64,000 nt of DNA from an uncultured virus (IMG/VR IMGVR_UViG_3300031566_004355) (Duplodnaviria > Heunggongvirae > Uroviricota > Caudoviricetes), in the IMG/VR virus record IMGVR_UViG_3300031566_004355; one strand, 5' to 3'. Position 1 is the first letter of the stretch, and every line of letters begins with the position of its first letter. The notes beneath the pieces were generated by a model. The model saw only the letters and a list, made by a program, of their open reading frames with translations, did not search any database and was not told where the DNA came from. Below are positions 911 to 46,413 of the stretch, piece after piece. Made by a program: the position numbers and the translations under genes.

Positions 911-912
911 GT

Positions 913-29945: not shown

Positions 29946-29978
29946 AGGTGTATCATAAAACTTTGAGGTGACGCGCCT

Positions 29979-30266
29979 TTGTACGAAGGCGCTGCCAAAT
30001 ATCTTGAGGAGGTTAGTGCTATAGCCAATAAAAAGTACAGTGAATTGACTCCTGCCGACAAGGCGAAGAGGCGTGAGTATGCTAAGGACCGCCGACATCG
30101 CATCAACGACGCAGCGAGGAAAGCTGGTGTCATTGGCGCACCACGGCCTAAGATGTCCGATACGGAGCGGAAGGCGAAGAGAAAGACGTATCAGAAGGCG
30201 TACCGGAAAACTGTGGTTGCGCAGGCCCGGGCTTATCGACAGCTCCAAGCCGAAGGAAAGGCTTAA
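29979..30266 (+). CDS. Highly basic protein; candidate virion nucleoprotein
   Basis: K/R-rich 95 aa; first gene after P4, directly before the candidate capsid gene. Confidence 0.65.
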   Translation: MYEGAAKYLEEVSAIANKKYSELTPADKAKRREYAKDRRHRINDAARKAGVIGAPRPKMSDTERKAKRKTYQKAYRKTVVAQARAYRQLQAEGKA

Positions 30267-30318
30267 TACACCTTTGGCTTTTCTGTCAAAAAGAATAATA
30301 CAAGGAGGTTATCCATAG

Positions 30319-30543
30319 ATGATTGGTAGTGTAATTGGTGCATTGGTGGTTGGTCTGATAGGCGTTTTCGCCATCGTGATATCTCAGGGTATCATATCCG
30401 GCCAGACTACTACTGGATGGCCTACGGTCCTCACATCGATTATGACCAACATCTCCCCAGTGATCGGTATAGTGGCCATCATTGCGATGTTTATCATAAT
30501 TGTGAGGTTAGCGGGAGGCTTTGGAGGCGCCAGCGGCGTCTAG
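30319..30543 (+). CDS. Candidate major capsid protein: 74 aa, two hydrophobic helices, spindle-virus VP1-like
   Basis: Helix-polar turn-helix architecture; strong SD AAGGAGGT; followed by a strong hairpin. Confidence 0.6.
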   Translation: MIGSVIGALVVGLIGVFAIVISQGIISGQTTTGWPTVLTSIMTNISPVIGIVAIIAMFIIIVRLAGGFGGASGV

Positions 30544-30578
30544 TCAATCTATTCGAGACGCCATGACGTAGAAATACG

Positions 30579-30605
30579 GAGAGGGGACGGCAACGTCCCC
30601 TCTCT
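30579..30605 (+). terminator. Strong hairpin after the candidate capsid gene
   Basis: GAGAGGGGACG-GCAA-CGTCCCCTCTC, 11-bp stem with GNRA loop. Confidence 0.7.
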
Positions 30606-30616
30606 GTCTATGGGGA

Positions 30617-31216
30617 GTGAGTATGCACGGCGCAATGGCCTTCTTCGTGTTTGTGTTCATAGCGTGCCAGATAGTGGTTATTTCCATTTCTGGCGGTGGT
30701 ATGGCTGTTACTGCTCTTACAAGTAGTGTTGATGAGGATGACGCAACTTTTCCAGTTAGCAGTACTACAGGACTTCTAGGGGCTTCGGTACTCCATCCTG
30801 CGTACTTGATAGTGGTCGGAAGCACCCGCGAGGTAGTCTCTTATGCAGGGCTGACGAGTACTACTATAACTGGTATTACTCGGGGTGTTGCAGACCCTCA
30901 GACCGGTGAGCAGTATGAAGCTAGTGAGCATGCTGTAGGGTCGAAAGTGATGACCACTAATGTGGGCGCTCTCGACAGCTTTGTCGGGTACAATGTAGGT
31001 AGTGCCCAAGGCACTGGTGGTTCCATAAGTGTGATAGTAGCGTCTGGCCTTGCTGTCCTGCGAAACTTTCCTAGGATGCTGGTATGGGATTATCCCTGGT
31101 TCAACAACCAAACGGCTATTCTGCGACTCCTGCTACTTTGTCTCAGTGCAGGTTTTATATGGTCGCTATTCATGACGTTCCTTCAACTCGCTCGAGGTAT
31201 TCTGATTCCATCGTAA
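30617..31216 (+). CDS. Membrane-anchored virion protein
   Basis: N- and C-terminal TM segments around a beta-rich domain (EVVSY..LT.TT.TGITRG). Confidence 0.6.
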   Translation: MSMHGAMAFFVFVFIACQIVVISISGGGMAVTALTSSVDEDDATFPVSSTTGLLGASVLHPAYLIVVGSTREVVSYAGLTSTTITGITRGVADPQTGEQYEASEHAVGSKVMTTNVGALDSFVGYNVGSAQGTGGSISVIVASGLAVLRNFPRMLVWDYPWFNNQTAILRLLLLCLSAGFIWSLFMTFLQLARGILIPS

Positions 31217-31459
31217 CGGAGGTATAAGCGGCAAATGGAGGTGCATACGTGGTAGAGTGGGCAACGGTAATAGTCTCAATATGTCTTGCAGGCCTGGTTT
31301 ACTTCCTCATTAAGGGTATTGGACTAGCACTCAAGGGCAGAGAGCTGCCGGATGCCGAAGAAGGCGACTATGTTATTAAAGTGGTAGCGAGGATAGGTCA
31401 CAGAGGCTACTTGGCTGTGATGAGCCGGTACGAGAGACGTGATAAGAAGCGAGAGGTGG

Positions 31460-32437
31460 ATGGGCCGTAGGGTACTAGTTGCGGTTCTAGTTGCGACTGT
31501 GGTGCTGCTGCTTTGGCCCATAGCGACGCTCGCAATTAGTGTCCCGGACGAGGGCCCATACATTATTCAAGTCGACGCTTACAGACACGTCCTTGAAGAT
31601 GGCGACTTGTTGATACATGGCCGTTACAACTGGCCGTACGCATCTCCGCCTACTGAGACGATAACCCAGGCTGTGTTCGTGAGGCTTTTGGCTGGTACTA
31701 CGGAGCTTGCATACTGTGCACCCTATGCCTATTACAGTCGTGGCTGGAGCTACGGGTCGTTCTCGATGTACCTGACGGCTGCAGAGGCCTCGGGGTATTG
31801 GGAGGACACTCTGACTGTAGATATGCGTGGCAGTCCTACGCTTACCTGGACGGGTGGTGGCGACTATGTTGTGACCACTACTACAATTAACTGGAGGTCG
31901 ACTGCAACCGCTGTTGCGACTCGAGCCCTGATGTGTAGCCACTTAATTTCGTGGGCGACTACTTTGGGTGACTACTGGAGTGTTGCTTTGGTGTCTCAGT
32001 ACGCGGCCGGTGATAAGTTCTCGTCGTATGGCGAGGAGTACTTTACTAATGTGATACCGGGTCTGAGGGTTATGGTACCGGACTTGTTTGCAGGCGCCTC
32101 GGAGACACCTTCATACGACGATATTACCTATAACACTACCGCTGCGGCGACTATGCAGGATAACTGGCCTTTCGATATGGGCGGCATATCTGAGTGGCTG
32201 GGTATGCCTAACAATGACGAAGTTCTACGGACCGTAATAGCGTTCGTGATTATCTTTATTATAGGTATGGCAATGGCACGTCAGGGTATTCCCTCCGGAG
32301 CTATCCTCTTTGCGTGCTTTACGCTCTTGTTCGTTCTTGCTGTACCGGGATTCATCTCAATGATACTGGTGGGAGGCATTATGTTCGTCCTCATTCTGCT
32401 GACGGGTATGGTATTTCTCCTGCGGAGGGGTACATGA
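31460..32437 (+). CDS. Secreted protein with C-terminal multi-TM anchor; candidate virion protein
   Basis: Signal peptide, ectodomain, about three C-terminal TM helices; SD GAGGTG before ATG 31460. Confidence 0.65.
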   Translation: MGRRVLVAVLVATVVLLLWPIATLAISVPDEGPYIIQVDAYRHVLEDGDLLIHGRYNWPYASPPTETITQAVFVRLLAGTTELAYCAPYAYYSRGWSYGSFSMYLTAAEASGYWEDTLTVDMRGSPTLTWTGGGDYVVTTTTINWRSTATAVATRALMCSHLISWATTLGDYWSVALVSQYAAGDKFSSYGEEYFTNVIPGLRVMVPDLFAGASETPSYDDITYNTTAAATMQDNWPFDMGGISEWLGMPNNDEVLRTVIAFVIIFIIGMAMARQGIPSGAILFACFTLLFVLAVPGFISMILVGGIMFVLILLTGMVFLLRRGT

Positions 32438-34776
32438 AGCGTGGTCTCGTGTTGGGCTTGTTTCTCGTGCTGTTGCTGACGGTTCCAGTGGTTGCCGCGA
32501 CGTATACAGCTCCAGTTACATTGACCGAGGAGGGCACGACCGGCTACGACATGTTGCCTGTGTCTGTTGCTGTTGACAACGACAACCTGGTCGACCTAGG
32601 TATCATGTCGAGTACGGGTCTTGATACTCGCGTTCTACAGGGGTCTACAGAGCTTCCTCATATGGTCGTTAATGACTACCTATGGTTCGCGTTGCCTGTA
32701 GTTCAAGGCAATCAGTACCCGCTCAAATACACCTTTGGCAACACCGCATTATCTAGCTTTCCAGTTATCGTTGGTGATGGGGGGTACATTGTCATAACAG
32801 ACGATGCTGATTTGGAGTTGGACGGTGATTTTGAGATTGAGTATGACGGTTGGGTAGACACTACGGCTCCCACGTATCCTAAAGTGGAAGCAACAACTAC
32901 GGGCTATGACGACTCATCGACCTTAACTCACGTAATGGATGTGCCTGCAGGGGCAGAAGAGGGTGACCTACTCATCATAATGGCAGTCTGTTATGGAAGT
33001 GCGTCAGCTCCCGTTATTACTTGGCCGAGTGGCTTCATCAACTTGGACAAGTTCTCGCATAGTACCTATTCTCAGGCGGGAGCTGCGTATAAGTTTGCTA
33101 CTGGGTCTGAGGGCAGTACCGTTACTACTACATCCTCGACAATTTCCTACTGCTCGTGGCAGGTATTTAGAATCTCTGGGGCTACAGCTGCACCCGCAAT
33201 CACAGCTGAGGCAACAGACTATGACTCCAGTCCCAATTCAGCTGGCTTGAATCCAAGCGGTTGGAATAAGAGTGTAGGAACGCTATGGATAAGCTTCTTT
33301 GCCATGATGAGTGCTCATGACGTAGATTGCTCAGGGTACCCTAGTGGATATGGTGATGGATTGTATGTAGAAGACCCTGCTGCCAGCTTTACTGCTGTTG
33401 GCAGTGCAAGAAAGCAGTCTATTTCAGATTCCGATGACCCTGGTGCCTTTACTTTGACAGGAATAGACACCTGGGGAGCATGGACAATTGCAGTGAAGGG
33501 TAGTGAGTATCTGGTAAACAAAACGGATTCGTTTAGCATTATGGTCGGCGATGTTGGGGAGGTGTTGGCCTCTATACCTGGTATTGATATTAGTCAAACC
33601 ATAACGGGCGGTGGAGTGCTGCTCTATAATGGTAGTTATATCAGGGCTGGGGAGAAATTCACTAGTATGCCCATGGGTTACATAGACAGTGCTTCAGTTT
33701 ACCTTACTAAAGTAGGGAGTCCTACAGGTACTGCATATGTCAGACTCCGAAAGGTTTCTGATGATTCTGAGATAGGCACTTTCGGAAGCATAGATGCGTC
33801 TACTGTAACTGCTGGCACTAATCGGTATGACTTCACAACTCCTGTTTTCAATCCGACAGCCCAAGCTGCGAGAGTTACCATTGAGTTCAATGGTGGTAGT
33901 GGAGGTGCCTACATCTTTGTTAATACTGCGAATAGTGACGAGTTAGCTGATGCTCATGTCTGCAGGTATATTAGCTCATGGGATGATACTTTGACCGGAT
34001 ATGATTTGACATTCGAGCTTGATTATAGAGACTGCATAGGTAGTGCTACCTCTATAACTGCAGGAGACCACAATGTGAAAGCGGCTGGGGACGGTACCGA
34101 CATGAAGCTATACATAGATGACGTTGAGAAGGACAGTGAGACAATAAGGGCAGCCTCTGACAGCGACAATGGTTGGCTTATTTCTGGCTCGTACTTTAAT
34201 TCTTACACGCACACGACTTCGGATACTTTGAGGCTGACTTATGAGCCTGATTCTATTATAGTAGACACGACGCTACCCAATGAGGAGTTTCCCGGTACAT
34301 ACGATGGTGCTATAACCTTTGGCTCGAATCCTTCGAACGTTTCTACAACCCTGGGCGCGCTGCTCCCAGTAGAAACATCGGCGGCAAGTGCGTCCGCGGA
34401 CGAGACTCAGCCTAGCTTTGTGCCGGATACTGGTGATACTACCTGGGTTACTTCGGGCATCGAGGGTGAGAACTTGCCGCTATATGGATTCTTCAAGGGG
34501 CTGTTTGCGACCTATCACGAGCAGGGTGGGCCGGATATTTCTATGCCACTGTTCTGGAAGGTAGTTGCGGTAATACTTGCGTGGGCCTTTGGTACCGCAG
34601 TTCTGGTGACGACTAAACAAGTTGCGTTCGCGTTCATTGCGTACGTTGCGGGATTCGCTGTTCCTGCCTACTACATGGGAGGCCTGTTGGACTCTTGGCT
34701 TCCTATAGTGTACGGACTAGGTGCTGTGTGTCTCGCAGCGCTGACCTGGAAGTGGACTAGTAGTTCTATGGCATAA
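32434..34776 (+). CDS. Large secreted beta-rich protein with C-terminal TM anchors; candidate adhesin or spike
   Basis: Signal peptide MKRGLVLG..VVA; Ser/Thr/Asp-rich beta domains; three C-terminal TM helices. Confidence 0.7.
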   Translation: MKRGLVLGLFLVLLLTVPVVAATYTAPVTLTEEGTTGYDMLPVSVAVDNDNLVDLGIMSSTGLDTRVLQGSTELPHMVVNDYLWFALPVVQGNQYPLKYTFGNTALSSFPVIVGDGGYIVITDDADLELDGDFEIEYDGWVDTTAPTYPKVEATTTGYDDSSTLTHVMDVPAGAEEGDLLIIMAVCYGSASAPVITWPSGFINLDKFSHSTYSQAGAAYKFATGSEGSTVTTTSSTISYCSWQVFRISGATAAPAITAEATDYDSSPNSAGLNPSGWNKSVGTLWISFFAMMSAHDVDCSGYPSGYGDGLYVEDPAASFTAVGSARKQSISDSDDPGAFTLTGIDTWGAWTIAVKGSEYLVNKTDSFSIMVGDVGEVLASIPGIDISQTITGGGVLLYNGSYIRAGEKFTSMPMGYIDSASVYLTKVGSPTGTAYVRLRKVSDDSEIGTFGSIDASTVTAGTNRYDFTTPVFNPTAQAARVTIEFNGGSGGAYIFVNTANSDELADAHVCRYISSWDDTLTGYDLTFELDYRDCIGSATSITAGDHNVKAAGDGTDMKLYIDDVEKDSETIRAASDSDNGWLISGSYFNSYTHTTSDTLRLTYEPDSIIVDTTLPNEEFPGTYDGAITFGSNPSNVSTTLGALLPVETSAASASADETQPSFVPDTGDTTWVTSGIEGENLPLYGFFKGLFATYHEQGGPDISMPLFWKVVAVILAWAFGTAVLVTTKQVAFAFIAYVAGFAVPAYYMGGLLDSWLPIVYGLGAVCLAALTWKWTSSSMA

Positions 34777-34788
34777 GGAGCATGTAAG

Positions 34789-37700
34789 ATGATTAGACGA
34801 CACGATTCGCGAGATAACACTTTGCTAGTGCAAAGTTCTGTGACCTCGACACCTGAGCAGCGACGTCCCGGGATACAAGACGTCGAAGCGCAGGGTGTGC
34901 AGGGTGTGCAGGGTCGCGGACCGGGTCGCCCTCATGCAGTTCACTGGGACGATGTACTGTCTAGCGCGACAGTTTATGCACAGCAAGGTGTGGACGCAAA
35001 CGTCCTTGTGCAGCTAATACGAGAGAGCAACCTACGGTCTGAGGGAGAGACTGGCTTTGTACTGAGTCAAGTAGTCTCGGCTGAGGTCCTAGACACCCTT
35101 ACTGCTGAACATCGCAGTTGGTACGACCAACAGATTGTAGAGATGACTCGAGTACTTGAGGAGGCTCAGAAGAACGTACAGAAGCGAATAGCGTCCTTGA
35201 AGGCACGTGGAGGCTACACATCGTCCGACATTCAACGGATTAAGACGAGCGAATACCCCAAGTGGAGTGCGCGGTACAAGACCGCTGATAAGGCTCTTGT
35301 CGGACTAGTCGCTAAGGGTGGTAAGGGAGCAGTCGCGACAGAGCAGGCAGGAGCGTTTGCTAGGATACGAGCCAAAACAGCTGGTGTCGACCTTGGCGAC
35401 TTGTCGGAGCAAGACGTTGCTCAGTTGAAGCTGGCGTCGGGTGCCGATGTGTTGAGGCAAGCGGCTGACTTAGGCCTGAGCTCGGGGCAGCTAGCTGCTG
35501 CTATAGGCGGTGCGAGAGGAAAGACTCTTGGAACGCTTCTAGAGTTGGAGCCGTACAAAATTGAGGCCGAAGATGTTCCTGAGGGCGTTCCCGAGGTTAT
35601 ACTACGAGCTACTCCCGAAGAGCTGCACAGGATTGAGGAGGCTGCGACCTCTGGGGTGTGCGTGGGTGCGATGCGCGCGTACTACACTATTCAAACCTGT
35701 CGGGCAGTGTTGCGCGACGGCAGCTTCATATACGTGGAGGCCTTGAGTGTAGCTGATGCGGAGCAGAAGGCTAAGGATGCCGGATATGATGTTGTGTGGA
35801 CAACCTGGATGAGCGCCCGACCCTACGACGAGTGGAAGGGTGCTACAGCTTCCGAGCCTCCTGAGGATGCAGGACCTCTTGCGTCGACGGAGGACCTTCC
35901 AGTAACTCCAGAGACTACGTATCGCGCGGAGCCTCTTCCTATACCCCCGGACACAGAATACGACATACTTCAAGTAGTGGGAGCGGCTCAACGTGGAGAA
36001 GTCCCTATGGACGATCTCAAGAGAGTGTTTGGCGCCGACGTCGTCGAGGCCACACTACAGGGTTGGAACGCACTCTCTCCAGAGTACCAAGAAGTTGTGA
36101 TGGCTCAGGGTACCGACGTCTTGCGTCAGACTATGCAAGCCTCGATGCCCTCGGAGTACCAAGAGATTGCAGAGGCCGACGGCTTGGAGGTCGCGATAGC
36201 AGCATATAGCAACGCTCTCGAGGCCTCGGAGACAGCGCAACAGACTATTCAGGACTTTGCAATGGAACGGGGTCTAGCTTCCGACGACCTCGTATCGCTA
36301 TACTATGCAGGAGTGGGCGTTGACACCCTTCGTCAAGCATACCCCGGTAACTCAGAGTATTTCGGTAACCTCGAGCGAGTGCTCGATGCGATAGTGTCTA
36401 CAGTAGAGGTCAAGGAGACTCCTGGAACGTTTTGGACTGTTGAAGGTGCTCCCACTCCCGTAACACACGCTCCAGACTATGTGGGTGCGGTGGCCCTAGG
36501 TCTTGTTACTGTAGATGACATAGGGCTTCTTGGTTACGACTCTCAGGTGTGCACAGGCATTGGCAACGCAGTTAGTGGTATTCAGACAATCGTTGCTAAA
36601 TTCGATGCGGGAGTACAGTTAACGCCGCATCCCTATCCCCTGGGTAGCGGCACGTACGAGGCAACAAATCTTACGCGCGCGGAGATGACAGACTTGACGA
36701 CTGCTTTTCGGGAAGCTGGCGTGCCGTTCTTCGATGCCTCTTCGGAGGTTTCAGAAATCGAACAGGCAGCCCAGGCGTGGCGCGAGGAGTTAACGAGTGA
36801 AGATAAGATAAGGGTCGCGAGGGTATTAGTGAGCTATCCCGCCTTAGGGCGTCCGCTCGTGAGTCTCCACAGGGCACTGAGCACTCCGACTGCAGGCGAG
36901 GCCACAATGTCTAGGATTGCTAACAGCTTGCTCGCGGCCCCAGTGAGCGCAGTCATGACGCCCTTTGTCAAAGATATGACTGCAGGCGAGCTGCGGGAAC
37001 AGTTAGGACCTTACGCGACTATCGGTGCCGAGGACAAGGAGACTAGCTTCGACATCACAAAGTTTCTCGAGGATAACCCCTACGATGCGCCGTTGCTACT
37101 GCGTGGCGGCTTTGCTCCTGAGGAAGTCGAACGGGCACAAGAGGGTGAGCAAGTTAACACCATGCCGCAGGGTGCTACGCCCTTGGATTGGGTCATTATG
37201 GGCGCCGTGGTAGCGTCTTTCGCACTCCCAGGATTGCGGCACGGAATGATGGCTGTACTCGGTACTAAGGGCCCACTACACTTTGTGACCGCAGGACACT
37301 TTTACCGTTCTGCGGCAGCTACAGTCCTGTACCAGAGCCTAGCTATCGGCGAGACTGCTCTGAAGTGGGGCTTTCCAGTCGGACTGACTGCAGCAGACCT
37401 CATTTACTGGAAGGACTGGACGATTGAACAGAAGGCCATTGCGGGCATATTCACTGGTCTAGCATGGCTACCAGTTGTGGGGACACTGTTCCGAACTGCT
37501 AGAACCGGAACTCAGTACGCTAGGGCTGCGTTGTCTCGAGGCCCTACAGTACCTGGGAGGGCCTTGACAACGGGCTACTACGACCTCTACCCGATACAGG
37601 TTCCTCGAAGCTTTTTCGCAGACCTTCCACTGGAGGTGCGAGTACAGATTCGCACGATAGTGACTAGCAATATGGCCCCGGAGGCCCAGATTAAGGCTAT

Positions 37701-40700
37701 ATCTGAATTACTCGAGCCTACGCAAACCGCGCCCGCTTTCTTAGAAGTAATGGGGTTGCGAAGTCTCACATCCTACGATGTTCCAGCACAGTTTCATGGG
37801 AGCGCTTCGGCAGCCTTCGAGAGTGTACCCGGAATGACTCCTGCTAAAGCACAAGCACTTCTGGTCTACCTGAACCGGAACCCAGACGTAACGGTCGGCG
37901 GGAGCGTATCCATGGTCGCGAACGGGTTCAGGGGAATCGAGCCCCACGACCTCGACATGGTCGTAGCAGGCGACGATGCTCGGGTAGCTCAAGTGCGTAG
38001 GGACTTGGATGGCATTCTAGGTTCGGGGGTCTCTAGGGATGTTAAGAGGCTAGGTCAGTACGCTCCTCCGCCGTATAGTCTTGCGGCGGATATTCCTCTA
38101 CCCGTAGTAATTGATGGCGTGAGGTTCGTGCCGGCAGGCGAGCTAGTAGGAAACTTATTGTCGACCGTTGCGTCACCCGGTCTTGAAGGCTGGATGGGTC
38201 CGGGTGCTGAGACCTTGCCTCGCAGCGACTTTCCCGAAGTTAGAGTGGGGACGCACGAGGGCCGAGTTCCTGACTACTACAAGTTGAAGACTTTAGCCAG
38301 TCAGATTGCAACACAGTTGGAGTCCCAAGGACACACGGCAGAGGCTCAAGCGGTGACAGCACACTTACAGGCCTACGAAGATTGGCTAAGGACCTTCGAG
38401 ACCGAGGGTCTCGAGACACTTCCACCCAGCGAAGCGGCCCAACTACGGGCGGACGTCTTGGCGCTCGTACGTGATGCACAGTACCAACTCCTAGAACAGG
38501 GTAAGGGTGTTGTGGTATTAGACCCCAAAGGGCGGTGGGTAGTTGCCGTGGCGGCTTCGCCTGCTAACGAGGTTATGCCGGGTGCCGTGATTATGGCTAC
38601 GGGGGATATTAGACCCAACATTGAGATGGCTAATACCCTCGGTAAGTTCAAGCCAACTGACCAGATGGTGTTCTTGTCGCCTAAGGCTGCCATGACGTAT
38701 GCTCGTGGTGAGGCACCTGGCCTAAACATCATTCTCACAGTTCCGTCGGTAGATATCGGGCCGGGAGGCATAGTCAAGGGGCTATTCAGGTACGAGACTG
38801 TAGAGCAGGCATTCGGGGGCGAGATGCAAGTAATTTACGACGAGTTGACGACGAGTGAGGAGTTCCTACCGACACCTAAGACCGCGCTGTCTTACGAGCT
38901 CGGCGTCGACACCGGAGTTATTAACATACTCGACTCCACTACGGGAAGGACCATACCAGCACTTGTTTGGAGGACTCCCGCAGCCGCCGCTAAGGGATTA
39001 GCTGCACCCTCTAAGGCGATAGCTTTGACCATGACCCACGTAGCTCTTAAGAGTGCTTTGCGCGGGCTACTGAAGCCTCACATGCACGACATAACACTGT
39101 CGGAGGTACCGGAAGCCGTGCGCACGGGTCTATTCTGGTTCGGTGACAAGCCATACGACTTGAGGCTTGCTACGGTAGACGACCTGCAGGGTGTTGCGAG
39201 TGTCGAAGTTCAGCGTGCCTTGACTCAAGCCGTCGAAGCTCTGCAACGTGAAGGGACGGCTTTAACTGAGAGGAACATTCTGAGCAAGGCCCAAGATATT
39301 CTTAGTACGGAAGTGGACGCAGCAAGCGTACCCACGATGATTACACAGGGTATGCAGACGAGACTCAAGACGTTAGGGCACTCTGATGCTGCTATTGCTA
39401 AGATGACGCCCCAAAACGCTTGGGACGTTTTGAATGCCGAAGGAGAGCCGTTCGTACCCAGTCCTCCAGAGACCGAGAGTGTTGTAGAGAGTGTCAGGGA
39501 CTTGGTAAGTGGCTTGGATACTAGGAGTCGTGCCCTGGTGGTCCGCGAGGCTACGACGGCGTACAGCGAGGCTATGAGGGCGGTCATTGACGAGTGGCAG
39601 AGGGGTGTGACATCCTTGCCAGATGCTCGTAAGCGGCTTTATTACCTTAATCTAGGATTATTGAGTCTGCGTCTCGCAGAGACTGCATTAGCTACGTCGT
39701 TACTCACTGCTAGAACGGGCGCGGGCTCGACGCTATTTCTACCTACTACGTCTTTGACAGGCACCTCGATAGGAGTCACGTCGGAAGTTGAGTCGATACT
39801 GTTTGGTACAACATCGGGAGTGTCTGGACCTGAGACGCTCGTAGCGGAAGTTACGTCGCCACTCACTGTACCGACGCTCAGTACCACCCCAATAGGAACT
39901 GACGTTACTACGTCGCTACCTACACTACCCACAACGTCGCCTACTGTACCTCCAACTTCGCTTGTTACCGGCGGAACGGTGCCGGGCACGCCCGTTTTGA
40001 CTCCGCCACCTACGTTACCGAAGGGACGTCCTCCAGTTACGCGGGGTGCTACGGAACAACTGCGAAAGGCGTACGAGCAGGGTGAGCCCATTCTGCTTTG
40101 GCGCCAGGGCGAGCTCAGTAACAAGGACGTGTGGAAGGCAGTATTAGACCCCGAGAACCAGAAGAACTTGCTGACGGTCGTAGGAACTGAGAAGTTACCT
40201 GTGGAACCAGCGAAGTATGCTACTGGTCCGGGAAGTGCGCGTGCAACACTACAGTGGATAGGTACAGGACCCAAGTTTGCAGGCTCCGCTGACCTCGGAA
40301 TCGTTGACGTCTTTTGGGGTGTGGAGGGTACGAACCTGAGATTCAAGGGCAAGGGCCTAGAGACCATTGTGGGTGAGCGCATAGATTCGCCGACGATAGG
40401 CATCAGCATTCCCGAGAAGGGTCAGCGAAAGTTCGGCACAACGTTTGCAGAGGCTCTAGCGTACGAGCCGGTAGACGAGGCCCAGAGAGACTTCATAGAG
40501 CAACAGATACAGAAGATGCTCCCGAACATGAGTTCCGAGGAGATTGCACGAGAAATGAAGGCCGTCAACCTGCCCGAGGAGCGCGCTGGGGAGATACTTT
40601 CGTACATCCCTGACCAACAGCGTAACGTCGTGCGCGCCTTGCTAAAGCCCAAGTACTACACTAAAGTGGGTTCGGGTTTCGAGTTCGCGAAGACCTCAGC

Positions 40701-40908
40701 ACGGCCGGCGTCTTCGGAACTAGTAGCCCAGGTATTTAATGGAGAGATAGTCGACGAGCCTATGGGTCCTGAGGAGGAGAAGGCTCTGTACTCTGAAAGT
40801 GAGCTTGCACAGTTGAGGTCGGAAGCGCTGTCTAAAGTTAAGTCCACGCTTCCTCTCTCTGAGGAGCAAGAAGTCGCGGCAATGTTGTTGGAGGTAAAAG
40901 GACTATGA
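34789..40908 (+). CDS. 2039-aa multidomain protein with central TM segments and a nucleotidyltransferase-like motif
   Basis: VGGSVSM..GFRGIEPHDLDMVV (GS..DxD); hydrophobic segments; Pro/Thr-rich linker. Confidence 0.75.
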   Translation: MIRRHDSRDNTLLVQSSVTSTPEQRRPGIQDVEAQGVQGVQGRGPGRPHAVHWDDVLSSATVYAQQGVDANVLVQLIRESNLRSEGETGFVLSQVVSAEVLDTLTAEHRSWYDQQIVEMTRVLEEAQKNVQKRIASLKARGGYTSSDIQRIKTSEYPKWSARYKTADKALVGLVAKGGKGAVATEQAGAFARIRAKTAGVDLGDLSEQDVAQLKLASGADVLRQAADLGLSSGQLAAAIGGARGKTLGTLLELEPYKIEAEDVPEGVPEVILRATPEELHRIEEAATSGVCVGAMRAYYTIQTCRAVLRDGSFIYVEALSVADAEQKAKDAGYDVVWTTWMSARPYDEWKGATASEPPEDAGPLASTEDLPVTPETTYRAEPLPIPPDTEYDILQVVGAAQRGEVPMDDLKRVFGADVVEATLQGWNALSPEYQEVVMAQGTDVLRQTMQASMPSEYQEIAEADGLEVAIAAYSNALEASETAQQTIQDFAMERGLASDDLVSLYYAGVGVDTLRQAYPGNSEYFGNLERVLDAIVSTVEVKETPGTFWTVEGAPTPVTHAPDYVGAVALGLVTVDDIGLLGYDSQVCTGIGNAVSGIQTIVAKFDAGVQLTPHPYPLGSGTYEATNLTRAEMTDLTTAFREAGVPFFDASSEVSEIEQAAQAWREELTSEDKIRVARVLVSYPALGRPLVSLHRALSTPTAGEATMSRIANSLLAAPVSAVMTPFVKDMTAGELREQLGPYATIGAEDKETSFDITKFLEDNPYDAPLLLRGGFAPEEVERAQEGEQVNTMPQGATPLDWVIMGAVVASFALPGLRHGMMAVLGTKGPLHFVTAGHFYRSAAATVLYQSLAIGETALKWGFPVGLTAADLIYWKDWTIEQKAIAGIFTGLAWLPVVGTLFRTARTGTQYARAALSRGPTVPGRALTTGYYDLYPIQVPRSFFADLPLEVRVQIRTIVTSNMAPEAQIKAISELLEPTQTAPAFLEVMGLRSLTSYDVPAQFHGSASAAFESVPGMTPAKAQALLVYLNRNPDVTVGGSVSMVANGFRGIEPHDLDMVVAGDDARVAQVRRDLDGILGSGVSRDVKRLGQYAPPPYSLAADIPLPVVIDGVRFVPAGELVGNLLSTVASPGLEGWMGPGAETLPRSDFPEVRVGTHEGRVPDYYKLKTLASQIATQLESQGHTAEAQAVTAHLQAYEDWLRTFETEGLETLPPSEAAQLRADVLALVRDAQYQLLEQGKGVVVLDPKGRWVVAVAASPANEVMPGAVIMATGDIRPNIEMANTLGKFKPTDQMVFLSPKAAMTYARGEAPGLNIILTVPSVDIGPGGIVKGLFRYETVEQAFGGEMQVIYDELTTSEEFLPTPKTALSYELGVDTGVINILDSTTGRTIPALVWRTPAAAAKGLAAPSKAIALTMTHVALKSALRGLLKPHMHDITLSEVPEAVRTGLFWFGDKPYDLRLATVDDLQGVASVEVQRALTQAVEALQREGTALTERNILSKAQDILSTEVDAASVPTMITQGMQTRLKTLGHSDAAIAKMTPQNAWDVLNAEGEPFVPSPPETESVVESVRDLVSGLDTRSRALVVREATTAYSEAMRAVIDEWQRGVTSLPDARKRLYYLNLGLLSLRLAETALATSLLTARTGAGSTLFLPTTSLTGTSIGVTSEVESILFGTTSGVSGPETLVAEVTSPLTVPTLSTTPIGTDVTTSLPTLPTTSPTVPPTSLVTGGTVPGTPVLTPPPTLPKGRPPVTRGATEQLRKAYEQGEPILLWRQGELSNKDVWKAVLDPENQKNLLTVVGTEKLPVEPAKYATGPGSARATLQWIGTGPKFAGSADLGIVDVFWGVEGTNLRFKGKGLETIVGERIDSPTIGISIPEKGQRKFGTTFAEALAYEPVDEAQRDFIEQQIQKMLPNMSSEEIAREMKAVNLPEERAGEILSYIPDQQRNVVRALLKPKYYTKVGSGFEFAKTSARPASSELVAQVFNGEIVDEPMGPEEEKALYSESELAQLRSEALSKVKSTLPLSEEQEVAAMLLEVKGL

Positions 40909-41144
40909 ATGTACACTTGAAGTACTGTATATTAGCAGCCTGCGGCATCGCAGCTTCGGTGCTGCTTGGGTTGTTTGTTGACAGTAACGCGTACATAGTG
41001 TCGGCTATATGTACTGTATGGTGCGTGTACTACTTTGTTGTGTGGCTAGCGCGTACCCCTATCAAGCCTAAGTTGACATCTGAAGAGGTTTTCAGGAGCT
41101 TTCACGAAGATGACTCAGACCAGTCCAGTACTAAAGAGAGTTGA
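40905..41144 (+). CDS. Small 2-TM membrane protein
   Basis: ATGA overlap; two hydrophobic helices. Confidence 0.55.
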   Translation: MNVHLKYCILAACGIAASVLLGLFVDSNAYIVSAICTVWCVYYFVVWLARTPIKPKLTSEEVFRSFHEDDSDQSSTKES

Positions 41145-41466
41145 GCGTCGGCTCAGTAGACTGAGCAAGAAGACCTACAAGAATGCTGCTCCGCACACCT
41201 ACGGCCAGAAGTGGTTTTACCCTTACGGGTTCAAGGAGGTACGGAACTACCGTAAGGAGTTGGTCACAAAGCTCTATGTAGATGGACCGTTTGCAGCTAA
41301 GAGGGAAGCTGAGCTTAGGCTTGACGAGTTAAAGCTCGATATGGGTGACATCTATGAGAGTGAACACCGTGACCCTAACAGAGCTAAGAAGGAAATAGCT
41401 GAGAAGCTGAACAAAGACCATAAGTTGCCGGTCGAGGTCGCGACCCAACGAAAGTACAGGAAGTAA
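41110..41466 (+). CDS. Basic hypothetical protein
   Basis: 118-aa ORF in operon. Confidence 0.55.
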   Translation: MTQTSPVLKRVERRLSRLSKKTYKNAAPHTYGQKWFYPYGFKEVRNYRKELVTKLYVDGPFAAKREAELRLDELKLDMGDIYESEHRDPNRAKKEIAEKLNKDHKLPVEVATQRKYRK

Positions 41467-41482
41467 ATGAAGGAGGTTTTGA

Positions 41483-42076
41483 ATGAGTCCATGGCTAGAG
41501 GGAATATGGGCCCTGGCAAAGGTTTTCGGGGCCGTTCTCGGTGTAATGGCTATCGGTCTGCTGGTCCTAGTAATCTTTATAGATATATGGGCCAAGAGGA
41601 CGACTGCCGGCAAGTTCTGTTGCTTCTTCCTAGAGCAGAAGCACCTGTTTAGTCGCCTTTTGAAGGAAGATGGTGGAAAGGTGTATATGGGTAGGGGCGA
41701 GAACAAGGAGGAGTACCTTCTCGACCCCCGGAGACAGTTCTGGGCGTACTGGCCTGCTGGATTGCCTGCCGCGTTGCAGGTAGCTGTGCGGGCGCACTTC
41801 TACGTAAGGCATAGTCCAGACCCCTGGGACCCTGAGGACACCGAGTCGCTTATCAGTGCTAGGTCTCTCCGGATAATCTCGGACGAGGCGATGCTAAGGA
41901 CAACTTGGCGAGACGTTCGAGATAGTGCTAGTCCTCGCGCGGGCGTAGCCGCTGGGTTGCCCTCGTGGGCGCTGGCGCTTTTGCTTGCTAGTACCGCGCT
42001 AACTGGAATTGCGCTATACATGTTGATGGGAGTGCAGAAGAATGTTAACTTGCTCATGCAGATGTTTGGAGGTTAA
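41483..42076 (+). CDS. Membrane protein (N- and C-terminal TM) upstream of the ATPase
   Basis: SD AAGGAGGT; two TM helices. Confidence 0.65.
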   Translation: MSPWLEGIWALAKVFGAVLGVMAIGLLVLVIFIDIWAKRTTAGKFCCFFLEQKHLFSRLLKEDGGKVYMGRGENKEEYLLDPRRQFWAYWPAGLPAALQVAVRAHFYVRHSPDPWDPEDTESLISARSLRIISDEAMLRTTWRDVRDSASPRAGVAAGLPSWALALLLASTALTGIALYMLMGVQKNVNLLMQMFGG

Positions 42077-42078
42077 GC

Positions 42079-42426
42079 ATGTCTAATGGTGGAGCTAAGC
42101 TAACTCGAGAGAAGATTCTCGATTTCATACGTCGCAAAACCGAGGAGCAGGACACTACTCCTTACGTAGTGAAGGCTCTCTTTGGAGACGACCTGTCCTT
42201 GGTTACCGAGACTCACGGACGTATGATAATTCCAAAGGTGCGTATGCGATTGCTCCTAGCGGCCATGGATCCAACCCGTGAGGAGCCACTAATCAGTGTG
42301 TTTCTGCGGGAGTACAATAAGGAGATGGTAAACTTCGAGCGAAAGGGTCGTCTCGAACTACTGGGTGCGCTCCAGGCGCTTGTAGCAGAGGGTGAAGAAG
42401 AGCGTGCAGTAAGTATGGGAAAGTAA
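42079..42426 (+). CDS. Hypothetical protein upstream of the ATPase
   Basis: SD GGAGGT; 115 aa. Confidence 0.6.
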   Translation: MSNGGAKLTREKILDFIRRKTEEQDTTPYVVKALFGDDLSLVTETHGRMIIPKVRMRLLLAAMDPTREEPLISVFLREYNKEMVNFERKGRLELLGALQALVAEGEEERAVSMGK

Positions 42427-42427
42427 A

Positions 42428-43201
42428 ATGTCTTTAGGTAGTCCGCCCACAATCATACAACCCACAGACATCGAAGAGCTCTCCGATGAAGAGCTGTTGA
42501 TGATTGCCGAAGCCTTCCTGCATATCGAACGTGAGGAGCGGGAGGAGAAGCTTGCACGCCTGGTCGAGCAAGCTATTTTGATTGAGGGCAAGAAGGGCCG
42601 AGGAAAGAGTCTAGTGGCTCTAGCCATTGCATGGTGGCTGCGAGAGCTATTCAATCGTCCAGTCATCACTATCGGTTCCAAGATGGGACTAAAGCCCAGC
42701 TTCGGGCCACACTTAGTAATGAGTGAAATGGCTTTTAGGGACGAGCTGATGCAGCTGTCCATTGTAGCCAATGAGAACGATAATGCTGAGGCGGTTGCCA
42801 AGGCCTTCGAGAAGTACGGCATTAACATTCTCTACGCCACGCTCATCTTTGATGAGTCCTACAAGTTGTTCAACGCTCGTAACCCCATGGAGAAGCTCAT
42901 TCAGCTCTTTGGGTTCTTCATAGCACAGTCTCGGCACTACCATGTCACGACGATGCTGTTAACACCCGACAGAAGCATGCTTGACGGTAAGAGGGTCCGG
43001 CCTCAGATGGATTGGAACGGTCGAGTCTATCACAACAAGTATACTAACAAAGCGAGGCTGCGTCTCATCTCAGGTATAGAGACAATGACTGTCACGGTCG
43101 ATGGCAGAAATGACCCAAGTCCTGAAATGCCCTTCTACGATATGTACGATTCGTGGGCACTGCTCGGAATGCTTCCGAGCCAACTCAACATAAAGACTTA
43201 A
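42428..43201 (+). CDS. Zot-like (FtsK/HerA superfamily) morphogenesis or packaging ATPase
   Basis: Walker A IEGKKGRGKS, Walker B LIFDES, QSRH, LD.KRVR. Confidence 0.8.
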   Translation: MSLGSPPTIIQPTDIEELSDEELLMIAEAFLHIEREEREEKLARLVEQAILIEGKKGRGKSLVALAIAWWLRELFNRPVITIGSKMGLKPSFGPHLVMSEMAFRDELMQLSIVANENDNAEAVAKAFEKYGINILYATLIFDESYKLFNARNPMEKLIQLFGFFIAQSRHYHVTTMLLTPDRSMLDGKRVRPQMDWNGRVYHNKYTNKARLRLISGIETMTVTVDGRNDPSPEMPFYDMYDSWALLGMLPSQLNIKT

Positions 43202-46394: not shown

Positions 46395-46413
46395 AAATAA
46401 AGGAGGTGAACAA

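What the first reader, a model, noticed from the sequence alone, without database searches (positions are those of the whole stretch)
29979..43201. Morphogenesis module of an archaeal spindle-virus type in an apparently bacterial virus
Seen: after promoter P4 come a very basic 95-aa protein, a 74-aa protein of two hydrophobic helices joined by a polar turn (strong SD, followed by an 11-bp hairpin, as expected for a highly expressed gene), several signal-peptide/TM-anchored proteins and a Zot-like ATPase. No terminase, portal, HK97 capsid, tail tube or lysin is recognisable in 64 kb. Known: fuselloviruses (SSV1 VP1, about 73 aa mature, with basic VP2) and His1-like viruses use such two-helix capsid proteins, and spindle-shaped virions are described from archaea. 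Seen: sigma70 promoters, SD sites and lipoboxes indicate a bacterial host. Inference: a large non-tailed, spindle-shaped or otherwise membrane-associated bacterial virus. A peptidoglycan-poor S-layer host such as Dehalococcoidia would fit, but that is a guess.
Basis: partly seen in the sequence, partly recalled or inferred. Interest (0 to 1): 0.92.

Follow-up and report, generated by a model that had tools for sequence, protein, structure and literature searches.

The report
Non-tailed bacterial virus, hairpin coat protein
This stretch is the particle-building gene block of a large, uncultured, probably bacterial virus that lacks all head-tail phage genes and instead centres on a tiny two-helix membrane protein faintly like the coat protein of an archaeal lemon-shaped virus, plus a filamentous-phage-type ATPase.

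Summary
Behind a conserved promoter (29909-29945) lie a basic 95-aa protein, a 74-aa two-helix protein with a strong ribosome-binding site and a hairpin, eight membrane-anchored proteins, a 2039-aa protein and a Zot-type ATPase. No terminase, portal, HK97 capsid, tail or lysin was found in the 64-kb window or in a 78.8-kb relative.

The 74-aa gene is real and by far the most conserved gene of the lineage. It is duplicated in some relatives. Its only family resemblance is a weak, sub-threshold but specific one to the His1 capsid protein. It shows none to SSV1 VP1/VP3.

A protein-primed polymerase and a ~90-bp inverted terminal repeat indicate a linear genome of about 76 kb, also His1-like.

Several signs point to a bacterial host: bacterial-type promoters, hairpin terminators with T-runs in some relatives, bacterial-phage-like replication genes, and a sigma-70 region 4 protein in a relative. 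Chloroflexota is only hinted at.

Particle shape cannot be read from sequence. A 2026 preprint describes smaller Dehalococcoides elements with a similar gene logic and filament-like particles; I could not test homology to them.

Verdict: a new bacterial variant of the hairpin-coat, membrane-assembled virus type.

The parts
29909..29945 (+). Promoter P4 of the structural operon: upstream element GGATGTGCGTGTG, 18-nt gap, TATAAT (29940-29945).
   Evidence: It is one of 5 copies of GATGTGC-N20-30-TATAAT, all on the + strand and all intergenic, where 0.01 is expected. The same position in relatives L003, L007, L009, L010, L015, L016 and L019 reads TTG(C/T)nn, a 17-18 nt spacer, then TATAAT.
29979..30266 (+). 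Basic 95-aa protein, a candidate genome-condensing (nucleoprotein-like) virion protein.
   Evidence: pI 10.3, 27% K+R, no transmembrane segment. It is conserved at 56-76% identity directly upstream of the coat gene in 10 related loci. No Pfam, PHROG or NCBIfam hit.
30319..30543 (+). 74-aa two-helix hydrophobic protein, the candidate major coat protein.
   Evidence: Helical hairpin with pLDDT 86. 65 clusters of relatives. It stays 57-96% identical where PolA falls to 26-31%. Synonymous to non-synonymous codon differences of 28:1 versus L003. Tandem duplicates in L011, L016, G404 and G407. Sub-threshold His1_capsid hits in 15 of 31 members. hhalign against His1 VP21 gives E 6.5e-4.
30577..30606 (+). 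Perfect GC-rich hairpin after the coat gene (terminator, attenuator or mRNA stabiliser).
   Evidence: 13 paired bases by RNAfold. A comparable hairpin with a different stem sequence follows the coat gene in 13 of 15 relatives, several with a T-run. Here no T-run follows on the + strand.
30617..31216 (+). 199-aa protein with N- and C-terminal hydrophobic segments.
   Evidence: Topology. Conserved at 39-77% identity in L003, L004, L006, L007, L009 and L018, and at 25-35% in distant relatives.
31249..31470 (+). 73-aa protein with an N-terminal transmembrane segment and a basic tail.
   Evidence: Conserved at 45-48% identity in L003, L006 and L007.
31439..32437 (+). 332-aa protein with a signal peptide and three C-terminal transmembrane helices.
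   Evidence: Conserved in close and distant relatives at 24-71% identity.
32314..34776 (+). 820-aa ORF. The likely real start is at 32434 (MKRGL..., a signal peptide). It has three C-terminal transmembrane helices and is a candidate spike or adhesin.
   Evidence: The ends are conserved and the middle is variable in L003, L006 and L007.
34789..40908 (+). 2039-aa acidic protein with a central hydrophobic stretch and an S/T/P-rich linker. Role unknown.
   Evidence: No family hit and no usable Atlas hit. Giant proteins of 2203 and 2564 aa occupy the structural arm of relative G404.
40905..41466 (+). 79-aa two-transmembrane protein and 118-aa basic protein (pI 9.9).
41483..43201 (+). Conserved triad: 197-aa two-transmembrane protein, 115-aa soluble protein and 257-aa Zot-type ATPase (42428-43201). 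Candidate membrane-docked assembly or extrusion motor.
   Evidence: Pfam Zot E 2.2e-6, over the cut-off. AlphaFold2 pLDDT 85.8. Best Foldseek match 2r2a, Zot N-terminal domain, E 7.7e-9. No transmembrane segment in the ATPase. The triad is adjacent and in the same order in 5 of 5 distant relatives.
43214..43641 (+). Two small acidic paralogues (66 and 76 aa), both ending in RGFV(S/A)EV.
   Evidence: The 76-aa protein is conserved in L012 and L067. It has a weak PHROG 'transcriptional regulator' hit at 0.005.
43653..47097 (+). 913-aa fibre-like protein with a lipoprotein-type leader, and a 227-aa lipoprotein with lipobox VIAC. Candidate receptor-binding parts.
   Evidence: Residues 401-517 resemble the trimeric coiled coil of P22 tail needle gp26 (4lin_A, 2e-9). 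PHROG tail and needle hits.
47532..58639 (+). Glycosylation cluster that probably serves the virion proteins: GT2-GtrA polyprenyl-phosphate sugar synthase, epimerase, nucleotidyl transferase, radical-SAM/SPASM enzyme, GT4, methyltransferase and a TMEM260/PMT-like GT-C enzyme.
   Evidence: The GT2-GtrA and the PMT-like genes are also present in G404.
1..92 (.). Left inverted terminal repeat of the linear genome.
   Evidence: In each of 4 runs a second 9.2-9.7-kb contig ends with the reverse complement of window 3/63-92 and then diverges.
913..2646 (+). Protein-primed family B DNA polymerase.
   Evidence: phrog_11768 at 9e-29. Best tblastn hits are Rhodococcus phage Toil at 8e-18 and 15-kb Microbacterium phages. 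His1 and ABV2 score 2e-5. It is the only window protein with a significant match in the His1 genome.

Best explanation
The region is the virion-morphogenesis arm of a large, linear, double-stranded DNA virus that is non-tailed and most likely infects a bacterium. The window holds at least 64 kb of a genome of probably about 76 kb.

Proposed mechanism:
- A late bacterial-type promoter (P4) drives the operon.
- Its first products are a basic protein that coats or condenses the DNA, and a very abundant 74-aa helical-hairpin protein that inserts into the cell membrane and polymerises into the particle shell.
- The hairpin after the coat gene keeps coat mRNA in excess over the downstream genes.
- The signal-peptide and transmembrane-anchored proteins, the lipoprotein-type fibre and the giant protein form the ends, spikes and adhesins. 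They are probably glycosylated by the virus's own polyprenyl-phosphate sugar and GT-C enzymes.
- A soluble Zot-type ATPase, docked to the membrane through its two conserved neighbours, powers assembly and release at the membrane without lysis.

Shown:
- gene content, topology, conservation and synteny;
- the type of the ATPase;
- the promoter and hairpin signals;
- the inverted terminal repeat together with the protein-primed polymerase.

Inferred:
- that the 74-aa protein is the coat protein;
- assembly at the membrane and release by budding;
- the docking of the ATPase;
- glycosylation of the virion proteins;
- the host.

The particle shape (spindle, filament or pleomorphic) is left open.
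For: **No head-tail hallmark genes**
- None was found in the window: 70 ORFs in Pfam, 52 in PHROGs, 28 in NCBIfam.
- None was found in the 78.8-kb relative G404. There 62 of its 117 ORFs were scanned in Pfam and PHROGs, namely those of at least 100 aa without a window homologue.
- The genes shared by the window and G404 include no soluble 300-500-aa protein of unknown function that could be a hidden capsid.

**The 74-aa protein as coat protein**
- It is the most conserved gene of the lineage: 80% identical in L008 and L018, where PolA is 26-32%.
- It is under strong purifying selection.
- It has the strongest ribosome-binding site.
- A hairpin follows it in the window and in 13 of 15 relatives.
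- It is tandemly duplicated in 4 relatives.

**Resemblance to His1**
- Pfam His1_capsid is the family hit by the most members, 15 of 31. 3 of 7 distant members also hit it.
- hhalign against His1 VP21 gives E 6.5e-4, against 0.14-0.47 for five controls.
- An ESM Atlas neighbour cluster carries His1_capsid on 11% of its members.
- The His1 genome has the same plan. A 73-aa two-transmembrane coat gene is followed by transmembrane and signal-anchored proteins. It also has a glycosyltransferase, a protein-primed polymerase and terminal repeats.

**ATPase**
- establish the Zot type. The triad with its two neighbours is conserved in 5 of 5 distant relatives.

**Linear genome**
-.

**Bacterial host**
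- Five composite promoters where 0.01 is expected. Their -35-like TTG, 17-18 nt spacer and TATAAT are conserved in relatives.
- No TTTATATA or TTTAAATA anywhere in the window.
- Hairpins with T-runs in several relatives.
- The helicase and the protein-primed polymerase are closest to those of Bacillus and actinobacterial phages.
- A Sigma70_r4 protein in G404.
- A canonical lipobox.

**Precedent**
- The IME1 preprint, 10.64898/2026.09.15.751708. I read its abstract and sections 6, 9, 11 and 12.
Against: - No particle, proteome or expression data exist. No RNA run holds the sequence.
- The similarity to His1 is below every curated threshold. hhalign probability is only 27.6%, and its E-value is for a single pair.
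- Helical hairpins are common, and the fold searches cannot tell them apart.
- Members of the family also give weak hits to a holin family (8 of 31) and to TrbC/VirB2 pilins (4 of 31).
- About 11.7 kb of the presumed genome lies outside the window and was not seen.
- Proteins of 404, 703, 820 and 2039 aa were not folded, so a very divergent capsid fold is not excluded.
- ESM Atlas neighbour clusters are labelled Uroviricota where a phylum is given. This is an automatic label resting on few members.
- The 913-aa protein has a phage tail-needle-like coiled coil.
- Host evidence is indirect: no CRISPR match, no provirus and no tRNA. The coat protein was not found in GTDB species genomes or in 401 Dehalococcoidia genomes.
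- The hairpin in this window lacks a T-run.
Confidence: 0.6

Rival explanations
1. It is a very divergent head-tail phage. The capsid, portal and terminase genes are unrecognisable or lie in the unseen 11.7 kb. The block is then a tail, fibre, membrane and lysis region, with the 74-aa protein acting as a class II holin-like protein.
For: - Weak PHROG tail, needle and head hits, and a P22 gp26-like coiled coil, in the 913-aa protein.
- Phage_holin_2 hits at E 0.17 or weaker in 8 of 31 members.
- Atlas neighbour clusters are labelled Uroviricota.
- The replication genes are of the kind found in tailed phages.
- A 2039-aa protein with a hydrophobic middle could be a tape measure.
Against: - No hallmark gene was found in 64 kb here or in 78.8 kb of G404.
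- 11.7 kb is too small for a full head and tail set.
- No conserved candidate capsid exists among the shared genes.
- Holins are poorly conserved and sit beside a lysin. This protein is the best conserved gene, has a glycine-rich uncharged C-terminus, has no lysin nearby and is duplicated in relatives.
Confidence: 0.12
2. The module is what the main reading says, but the host is an archaeon, as for every known virus with this type of coat protein.
For: - His1-like coat protein, protein-primed polymerase and terminal repeats.
- An MCM-type helicase domain.
- ThyX and QueCDE genes, and a split into structural and enzymatic arms, as in ANME-1 spindle viruses of 45-90 kb (PMC9894754, passages read).
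- Shine-Dalgarno sites and lipoboxes also occur in archaea.
Against: - The promoters have TTG, a 17-18 nt spacer and TATAAT, mostly with TG before the -10. They are conserved across relatives.
- No archaeal TATA-box words occur.
- Hairpin and T-run terminators in relatives.
- A sigma-70 region 4 protein in G404.
- The polymerase and the helicase are nearest to phages of Actinomycetota and Bacillus.
- The rare NrdJ words are shared only with two Chloroflexota genomes.
Confidence: 0.12
3. It is not a virion module but a secretion, pilus or conjugation-like apparatus of a mobile element, with the 74-aa protein as a VirB2/TrbC-type pilin.
For: - TrbC/VirB2 sub-threshold hits in 4 of 31 members, best E 0.031.
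- Many membrane proteins and an ATPase.
Against: - No VirB4, coupling protein or relaxase family was hit in the 70 ORFs.
- The element carries two DNA polymerases, nucleotide-metabolism genes and DNA-modification genes. It also has a terminal repeat typical of a protein-primed viral genome.
- The 74-aa protein has no signal peptide ahead of its two helices.
Confidence: 0.04

Closest known systems
His1 virus (Halspiviridae; record NC_007914)
   Same: - A 73-74-aa two-helix coat protein with a weak, specific sequence resemblance.
- The coat gene is followed by transmembrane and signal-anchored proteins.
- A glycosyltransferase.
- A linear genome with inverted terminal repeats and a protein-primed polymerase, which is the only clearly homologous gene.
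   Different: - 14.5 kb against at least 64 kb (probably about 76 kb).
- Host is a haloarchaeon, against bacterial signals here.
- The record annotates no Zot-type ATPase.
- No PolA, nucleotide-metabolism arm or glycosylation cluster.
- No other shared gene.
- The coat similarity lies below Pfam's cut-off.
IME1 elements of Dehalococcoides (Nesbo et al., bioRxiv 10.64898/2026.09.15.751708; abstract and sections 6, 9, 11, 12 read)
   Same: - Bacterial double-stranded DNA elements without head-tail genes.
- A pI/Zot-like ATPase together with several small transmembrane proteins.
- One of those proteins is structurally like a spindle-virus coat protein.
- The authors propose budding or extrusion.
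   Different: - IME1 is 21-28 kb, integrative (tyrosine recombinase) and circular as an episome, with the ATPase directly upstream of the transmembrane genes.
- Here the genome is linear, about three times larger, and has no integrase among the ORFs scanned. The coat gene lies 12 kb upstream of the ATPase.
- Homology could not be tested. IME1 sequences were not in hand and bioRxiv supplements are closed.
- The window's ATPase and coat profile found nothing in 301 and 401 Dehalococcoidia genomes.
Fuselloviridae (SSV1; record NC_001338)
   Same: - Two-helix hydrophobic coat proteins, in two paralogues.
- A small basic DNA-binding protein encoded beside them.
- A large end-filament protein.
- Release by budding (recalled).
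   Different: - No sequence similarity of the coat family to SSV1 VP1 or VP3 (hhalign E 0.33 and 0.14).
- SSV1 is circular, 15.5 kb, and has an integrase.
- Its host is an archaeon.
Inoviruses (pI/Zot assembly ATPase plus small hydrophobic coat protein)
   Same: - A Zot-family ATPase by Pfam and by fold.
- A small hydrophobic coat candidate.
- The idea of extrusion through the membrane.
   Different: - Inovirus genomes are small, circular and single-stranded (recalled, and stated in the IME1 preprint, section 9).
- pI carries a membrane anchor (recalled), whereas this ATPase has none.
- The coat protein here is a hairpin without a leader.
ANME-1 spindle-shaped viruses (Itzamnaviridae, Tepeuviridae; PMC9894754, passages read)
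   Same: - Genomes of 45-90 kb split into a structural and an enzymatic arm.
- ThyX and QueCDEF genes.
- Two coat-protein copies in some members.
   Different: - The host is archaeal, by CRISPR matches in that paper.

Membership tests
His1-type spindle viruses (Halspiviridae) | Coat protein of about 70-80 aa made of two hydrophobic helices | tested here: met
   AlphaFold2 hairpin H2-28 and H36-64, pLDDT 86. Hydrophobic segments at 2-20 and 44-62.
His1-type spindle viruses (Halspiviridae) | Coat protein belongs to Pfam PF25665 His1_capsid | tested here: inconclusive
   15 of 31 members, and 3 of 7 distant members, hit the family. All are below the 27-bit cut-off; the best is 18.5 bits at E 0.002-0.003. 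hhalign against VP21 gives E 6.5e-4 at 27.6% probability, against 0.14-0.47 for five controls.
His1-type spindle viruses (Halspiviridae) | Linear double-stranded DNA with inverted terminal repeats and a protein-primed family B polymerase | tested here: met
   A repeat of about 90 bp is inferred from contigs of 4 runs. Polymerase: phrog_11768 at 9e-29 and tblastn hits to Toil, His1 and ABV2 polymerases.
His1-type spindle viruses (Halspiviridae) | Archaeal host | tested here: not met
   Bacterial-type promoters and terminators, a Sigma70_r4 protein in a relative, and bacterial-phage-like replication genes. This is indirect evidence only.
His1-type spindle viruses (Halspiviridae) | Spindle-shaped particle | not testable with these tools
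   This needs electron microscopy of particles linked to this DNA.
Fuselloviridae (SSV1 type) | Coat protein homologous to VP1/VP3 | tested here: inconclusive
   hhalign A3 against VP3 gives E 0.14 and against mature VP1 E 0.33. No hit to phrog_11172 was listed among the PHROG hits. Hairpin coat proteins diverge beyond sequence detection.
Fuselloviridae (SSV1 type) | Circular genome with a tyrosine integrase | tested here: not met
   No integrase family among the 70 ORFs. A terminal repeat indicates a linear genome.
Inoviruses (Tubulavirales) | pI/Zot-family morphogenesis ATPase | tested here: met
   PF05707 at 27.7 bits, over the 20.3-bit cut-off. Best Foldseek match 2r2a at E 7.7e-9.
Inoviruses (Tubulavirales) | Small single-stranded DNA genome without its own DNA polymerases | tested here: not met
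   At least 64 kb, with PolA, a protein-primed PolB, a helicase and NrdJ.
IME1-like elements of Chloroflexota | Homology of the ATPase and of the VP1-like protein to IME1 HOG04 and HOG00 | not testable with these tools
   IME1 sequences were not in hand. Eight 20-kb regions around Zot hits in Dehalococcoidia genomes share nothing with the window, and I could not show that any of them is an IME1.
IME1-like elements of Chloroflexota | Integrative element with a tyrosine recombinase, 21-28 kb | tested here: not met
   No recombinase was found. The genome is linear and about 76 kb.
Head-tail phages (Caudoviricetes) | Terminase large subunit, portal and HK97-fold capsid protein | tested here: not met
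   None was found in the window or in G404. The last ~11.7 kb of this genome was not seen, and four large proteins were not folded.
Conjugative type IV secretion | VirB2/TrbC pilin together with VirB4 and a relaxase | tested here: not met
   TrbC hits in only 4 of 31 members, best E 0.031. No VirB4 or relaxase family was hit.

The most novel reading that the evidence does not exclude
This lineage would be a true bacterial branch of the His1-type hairpin-coat viruses. It comprises dozens of metagenomic relatives with genomes of about 65-85 kb. It has a linear protein-primed genome, a hairpin coat protein and membrane assembly, and has grown five-fold by adding a phage-like replication arm and its own protein-glycosylation system. 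If so, the lemon-shaped or budding virus architecture, held to be specific to archaea, either predates the split of the two domains or has crossed it.
Probability: 0.35. Interest if true: 0.9.

Novelty: new variant of a known kind. Interest (0 to 1): 0.8.

Why it matters
Viruses built from a small hydrophobic hairpin coat protein are textbook examples of archaea-only viruses. Known non-tailed bacterial viruses are small. Here a widespread lineage of roughly 65-85 kb uses that coat type with a Zot-type ATPase. It comprises 65 coat-protein and 101 ATPase clusters.

If the host is bacterial, this would:
- widen the known architectures of bacterial viruses;
- show that standard pipelines mislabel such genomes, since IMG/VR lists relatives as 'provirus' or linear fragments and Atlas labels say Uroviricota;
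- give a direct test case for the origin of spindle and budding viruses.

It would also offer a virus-encoded protein-glycosylation system and a conserved promoter set for study. Together with the Dehalococcoides IME1 preprint, it suggests that such viruses may be common in bacteria with unusual envelopes.

Tried and rejected
**Fold searches of the coat model.** Foldseek against PDB and BFVD gave no match at E <= 0.001. VIA wide gave only generic helical hairpins, with a best Z of 8.4 to a GtrB membrane hairpin. These searches cannot discriminate between hairpins.

**Sequence searches against solved structures.**
- Coat profile: only photosystem PsbJ-type noise at E 0.37 or weaker.
- ATPase: nothing below E 0.57.
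- The 254-aa protein: nothing.

**tblastn against the 'phages' collection.** No match for the coat protein or the ATPase.

**Pattern scans for the coat protein.**
- GTDB genome contigs: none confirmed.
- IMG/VR: only the near-identical record.

**Fetching the rest of the contig.** An exact 45-base word from the window's end gave 0 matches in metagenome contigs. The window's own assembly is not held.

**Host and kinship searches.**
- ThyX in G002 and G003: not found with this query.
- Window ATPase in 301 Dehalococcoidia genomes: 0 matches.
- Coat profile in 401 Dehalococcoidia genomes: 3 chance-level hits at E 0.003-0.009 inside larger ORFs.
- Regions around 8 Zot hits in Dehalococcoidia: no shared protein and no coat-HMM hit.
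- NrdJ against 401 Dehalococcoidia genomes: 385 match, best 50-53% identity. With no comparison to other phyla this is not used as host evidence.

**Other checks.**
- tRNA scans of the window and of 10 loci: none.
- Rfam over the whole window: 0 matches.
- ESM Atlas on the 2039-aa protein: no usable hit.
- Itzamnavirus record OP413839 is not in the collection.
- Complex prediction of the ATPase with the 115-aa neighbour: no verdict, score 0.20 against a mark of 0.32.
- The look-up of sequencing runs: no RNA holder listed.
- Generic sigma-70 and terminator scans of 28000-47000: not above shuffles.
- Earlier scan notes by place and by sequence: nothing.

Full report
**1. What is there**

All plausible genes of the window lie on the + strand.

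The left 30 kb is a replication and nucleotide-metabolism arm. It encodes:
- a protein-primed family B polymerase (913-2646);
- MarR, ThyX and dUTPase;
- an AAA_24 ATPase and a DUF669 protein;
- an MCM-domain primase-helicase;
- QueC, QueD, a QueE-like radical-SAM enzyme and FolE;
- a Cas4-like nuclease and NrdJ;
- a PolA fused to a uracil-DNA-glycosylase-like domain (27342-29807).

The block of the finding starts at 29909. It holds a promoter, a 95-aa basic protein (pI 10.3) and a 74-aa protein with two hydrophobic helices. After these come a perfect GC-rich hairpin and membrane-anchored proteins of 199, 73, 332 and 820 aa. A 2039-aa acidic protein follows, then a 79-aa two-transmembrane protein and a 118-aa basic protein. 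Next is a triad of a 197-aa two-transmembrane protein, a 115-aa soluble protein and a 257-aa ATPase. Last come two small acidic paralogues, a 913-aa fibre-like protein with a lipoprotein-type leader, and a 227-aa lipoprotein.

A glycosylation cluster follows at 47532-58639. It includes a GT2-GtrA polyprenyl-phosphate sugar synthase and a TMEM260/PMT-like GT-C enzyme.

**2. No head-tail genes**

- Pfam on 70 ORFs, PHROGs on 52 and NCBIfam on 28 gave no terminase, portal, HK97 capsid, tail tube, tape measure or lysin.
- The only hits of that flavour concern the 913-aa protein. It has PHROG tail, needle and minor-head hits at 3e-7 to 4e-4. It also has a coiled coil like P22 gp26 (4lin_A, 2e-9). 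Together these mark it as a trimeric fibre.
- A distant relative, G404, was read in full. It is an IMG/VR record of 78,758 bases at 36.6% GC.
- G404 shares with the window the protein-primed polymerase, AAA_24, DUF669, QueC/D/E, FolE, the Cas4-like nuclease, a 254-aa protein and PolA. It also shares the coat gene (two tandem copies), the 197/115/ATPase triad, the 332- and 199-aa proteins, GT2-GtrA, the PMT-like enzyme, SNF2 and dUTPase.
- 62 further G404 ORFs (of its 117; those of at least 100 aa without a window homologue) gave no head, tail or packaging family in Pfam or PHROGs. Its 2564-aa protein was not scanned.
- The shared core holds no soluble mid-sized protein of unknown function that could be a hidden capsid.

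**3. The 74-aa protein**

- It has 65 clusters of relatives among 5.8 billion proteins, on contigs of up to 84 kb.
- It has only 16 representatives at E <= 0.001 among 1.84 billion. Two of those are repetitive oddities.
- In 18 metagenome loci the gene order is kept: PolA, basic protein, coat, 199, 73, 332, 820, giant protein.
- The coat protein stays 57-96% identical where PolA falls to 26-31%.
- Codon comparison shows 28 synonymous against 1 non-synonymous difference versus L003, 30:3 versus L005 and 29:13 versus L008.
- Four relatives carry two tandem copies: L011, L016, G404 and G407.
- AlphaFold2 gives a hairpin at pLDDT 86.
- A GC-rich hairpin follows the gene in the window and in 13 of 15 relatives. 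The stems differ in sequence, and several have T-runs.

These are the properties expected of a highly expressed, tightly constrained building block. They are not those of a holin. It has no charged tail and no lysin nearby, and it is the best conserved gene of the lineage.

**4. Kinship of the coat protein**

- Among 24,736 Pfam families, the one hit by the most members is His1_capsid (PF25665). 15 of 31 members hit it, best E 0.003.
- 3 of 7 distant members hit it too, best 0.0019 over nearly the full length.
- All these hits lie below the 27-bit cut-off.
- hhalign against His1 VP21 gave E 0.0039 with the narrow alignment. With the distant members added it gave E 6.5e-4 at 27.6% probability. 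It aligned the turn T-S-x-W, a proline, M-F and the K/R-A-G end.
- Five controls gave E 0.14-0.47 at probability 0.4% or less. They were SSV1 VP3, mature SSV1 VP1, two other small two-transmembrane proteins of His1, and the window's own 79-aa protein.
- An ESM Atlas neighbour cluster carries His1_capsid on 11% of its members, with a score of 0.89.
- Fold searches are uninformative for such a hairpin.
- TrbC/VirB2 (4 of 31 members) and a holin family (8 of 31) appear only as weaker noise.

I read this as a weak but specific link to His1, and no link to SSV1 at sequence level.

**5. Genome type**

- Laying the contigs of four runs on window 1-3000 shows the main contig starting at 63 or 150. In every run a second contig of 9.2-9.7 kb ends with the reverse complement of window 3/63-92 and then diverges.
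- This is the signature of an inverted terminal repeat of about 90 bp. The window start is then the left genome end.
- With the protein-primed polymerase, and the 75,732-base contig that carries the identical coat and ATPase proteins, the genome is most likely linear and about 76 kb.
- About 11.7 kb therefore lies beyond the window.
- His1 has the same genome type. Its polymerase is the only window homologue in the His1 genome.

**6. ATPase**

- Pfam Zot hits over the cut-off.
- The model has pLDDT 85.8.
- The best Foldseek PDB match is the Zot N-terminal domain 2r2a (7.7e-9). KaiC, RadA and RecA follow. The STIV2 packaging NTPase B204 is at rank 19.
- The ATPase has no membrane segment.
- It is always preceded by the same two-transmembrane protein and the same small soluble protein, in 5 of 5 distant relatives. 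This suggests that these two supply the membrane docking. That is inference.

**7. Host**

- Five + strand intergenic sites share GATGTGC, 20-30 nt, then TATAAT, where 0.01 is expected. They lie at 184, 2663, 11169, 29910 and 59441. Four of them read TGnTATAAT.
- At the site ahead of the structural operon, seven relatives keep TTG(C/T)nn, a 17-18 nt spacer and TATAAT.
- The words TTTATATA and TTTAAATA are absent from the window.
- 46 of 70 starts have a Shine-Dalgarno-like word by a loose pattern.
- The helicase is closest to those of Bacillus and Microbacterium phages.
- The protein-primed polymerase is closest to those of actinobacterial tectivirus-like phages at 8e-18, against 2e-5 for archaeal viruses.
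- G404 encodes a Sigma70_r4 protein at 2e-7.
- The only two GTDB genomes that share rare NrdJ peptide words with the window are a Dehalococcoidia MAG and a Caldilineales MAG.

Together these make a bacterial host likely, at about 0.8. Chloroflexota is only a possibility. No direct link was found: no CRISPR match, no provirus and no tRNA.

**8. Literature**

Three searches were run: spindle-shaped with Dehalococcoidia and virus, spindle-shaped with Chloroflexota and major capsid protein, and pI-like ATPase with dsDNA, non-tailed and bacterial virus. They found one relevant work, the preprint 10.64898/2026.09.15.751708. I read its abstract and sections 6, 9, 11 and 12.

That preprint describes IME1, integrative double-stranded DNA elements of Dehalococcoides, 21-28 kb long. 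They have a pI-like ATPase followed by five transmembrane proteins, one structurally like SSV1 VP1. They are abundant in virus fractions that contain filaments, and so far they are confined to Chloroflexota. Its supplements could not be seen, so homology with the window could not be tested.

PMC9894754 (passages read) describes 45-90-kb archaeal spindle viruses with ThyX and Que genes. PMC10541130 (passages read) describes a Bathyarchaeia spindle virus.

I found no paper that describes this lineage of about 65-85 kb.

It is an unchecked AI note and not independent support.

**9. Verdict**

The region is most likely the particle-building arm of a new, large, linear, protein-primed, non-tailed bacterial virus lineage. 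It has a His1-like hairpin coat protein and a Zot-type ATPase.

Still open are the particle shape, the host phylum, the content of the unseen right end and the kinship with IME1.

Noticed in passing
window 1-92 and 913-2646: An inverted terminal repeat of about 90 bp, inferred from contigs of four runs, lies next to a protein-primed family B polymerase. The same genome also carries a PolA, so it has two replicative polymerases.
   Followed up: partly
window 184-219, 2663-2698, 11169-11205, 29910-29945, 59441-59477: Five copies of one composite promoter. Its conserved upstream element (A)GGATGTGC sits just upstream of the -35 position. It may be a site for a virus-encoded regulator such as the MarR at 4169-4741, or for a modified sigma factor.
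   Followed up: partly
window 15661-16353, 21259-21642, 23534-24289, 24699-25256, 25253-26017: QueC, QueD, a QueE-like enzyme and FolE form a 7-deazaguanine pathway. A conserved 254-aa protein of unknown family always lies next to FolE, also in L008, L013, L014, L018 and G404. It is a candidate DNA-modification enzyme. It has no PDB or NCBIfam hit.
   Followed up: partly
window 47532-48617 and 57200-58639 (also G404 48908-49738 and 53304-54716): The virus encodes a polyprenyl-phosphate sugar synthase (GT2-GtrA) and a TMEM260/PMT-like GT-C enzyme, and both are conserved in a distant relative. This suggests that the virus O-glycosylates its own envelope proteins. The 2039-aa protein has an S/T/P-rich linker.
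   Followed up: no
window 27342-29807: A PolA with an N-terminal uracil-DNA-glycosylase-like domain and a 3'-5' exonuclease. It is only about 23% identical to any phage polymerase in the collection.
   Followed up: partly
window 43653-46394: The 913-aa fibre-like protein has three internal repeats of about 130 aa and a P22 gp26-like coiled coil. Its cysteine-rich C-terminal part looks like a beta-helix by eye.
   Followed up: partly
G404 (L078-L081): 1623-1738 versus the last 116 bases; L081:14741-15202 (-): The right-terminal 116 bases of the 78.8-kb relative are an exact inverted copy of an internal left segment, not of the left end itself. This could be an assembly fold-back or a displaced terminal repeat. 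The same relative has a block of minus-strand genes at its right end, including a Sigma70_r4 protein and a dual-specificity phosphatase.
   Followed up: no
window 1-30000 versus 48000-64000: GC skew is strongly positive (0.2-0.3) in the left 26 kb and falls to about 0 at the right. This is a steep gradient along a genome transcribed in a single direction.
   Followed up: no
window 10488-10877: A second, weak Zot-like P-loop hit (E 0.0038, below the cut-off) lies in a 129-aa ORF of the replication arm.
   Followed up: no
L037 and L038 (Dehalococcoidia genomes G320 and G308): Two genomes carry a small element of about 10 kb at the same chromosomal site, after an aminotransferase gene. It has a 174-193-aa Zot-like ATPase, a serine recombinase and zinc-finger proteins. 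It is unrelated to the window by BLAST.
   Followed up: no
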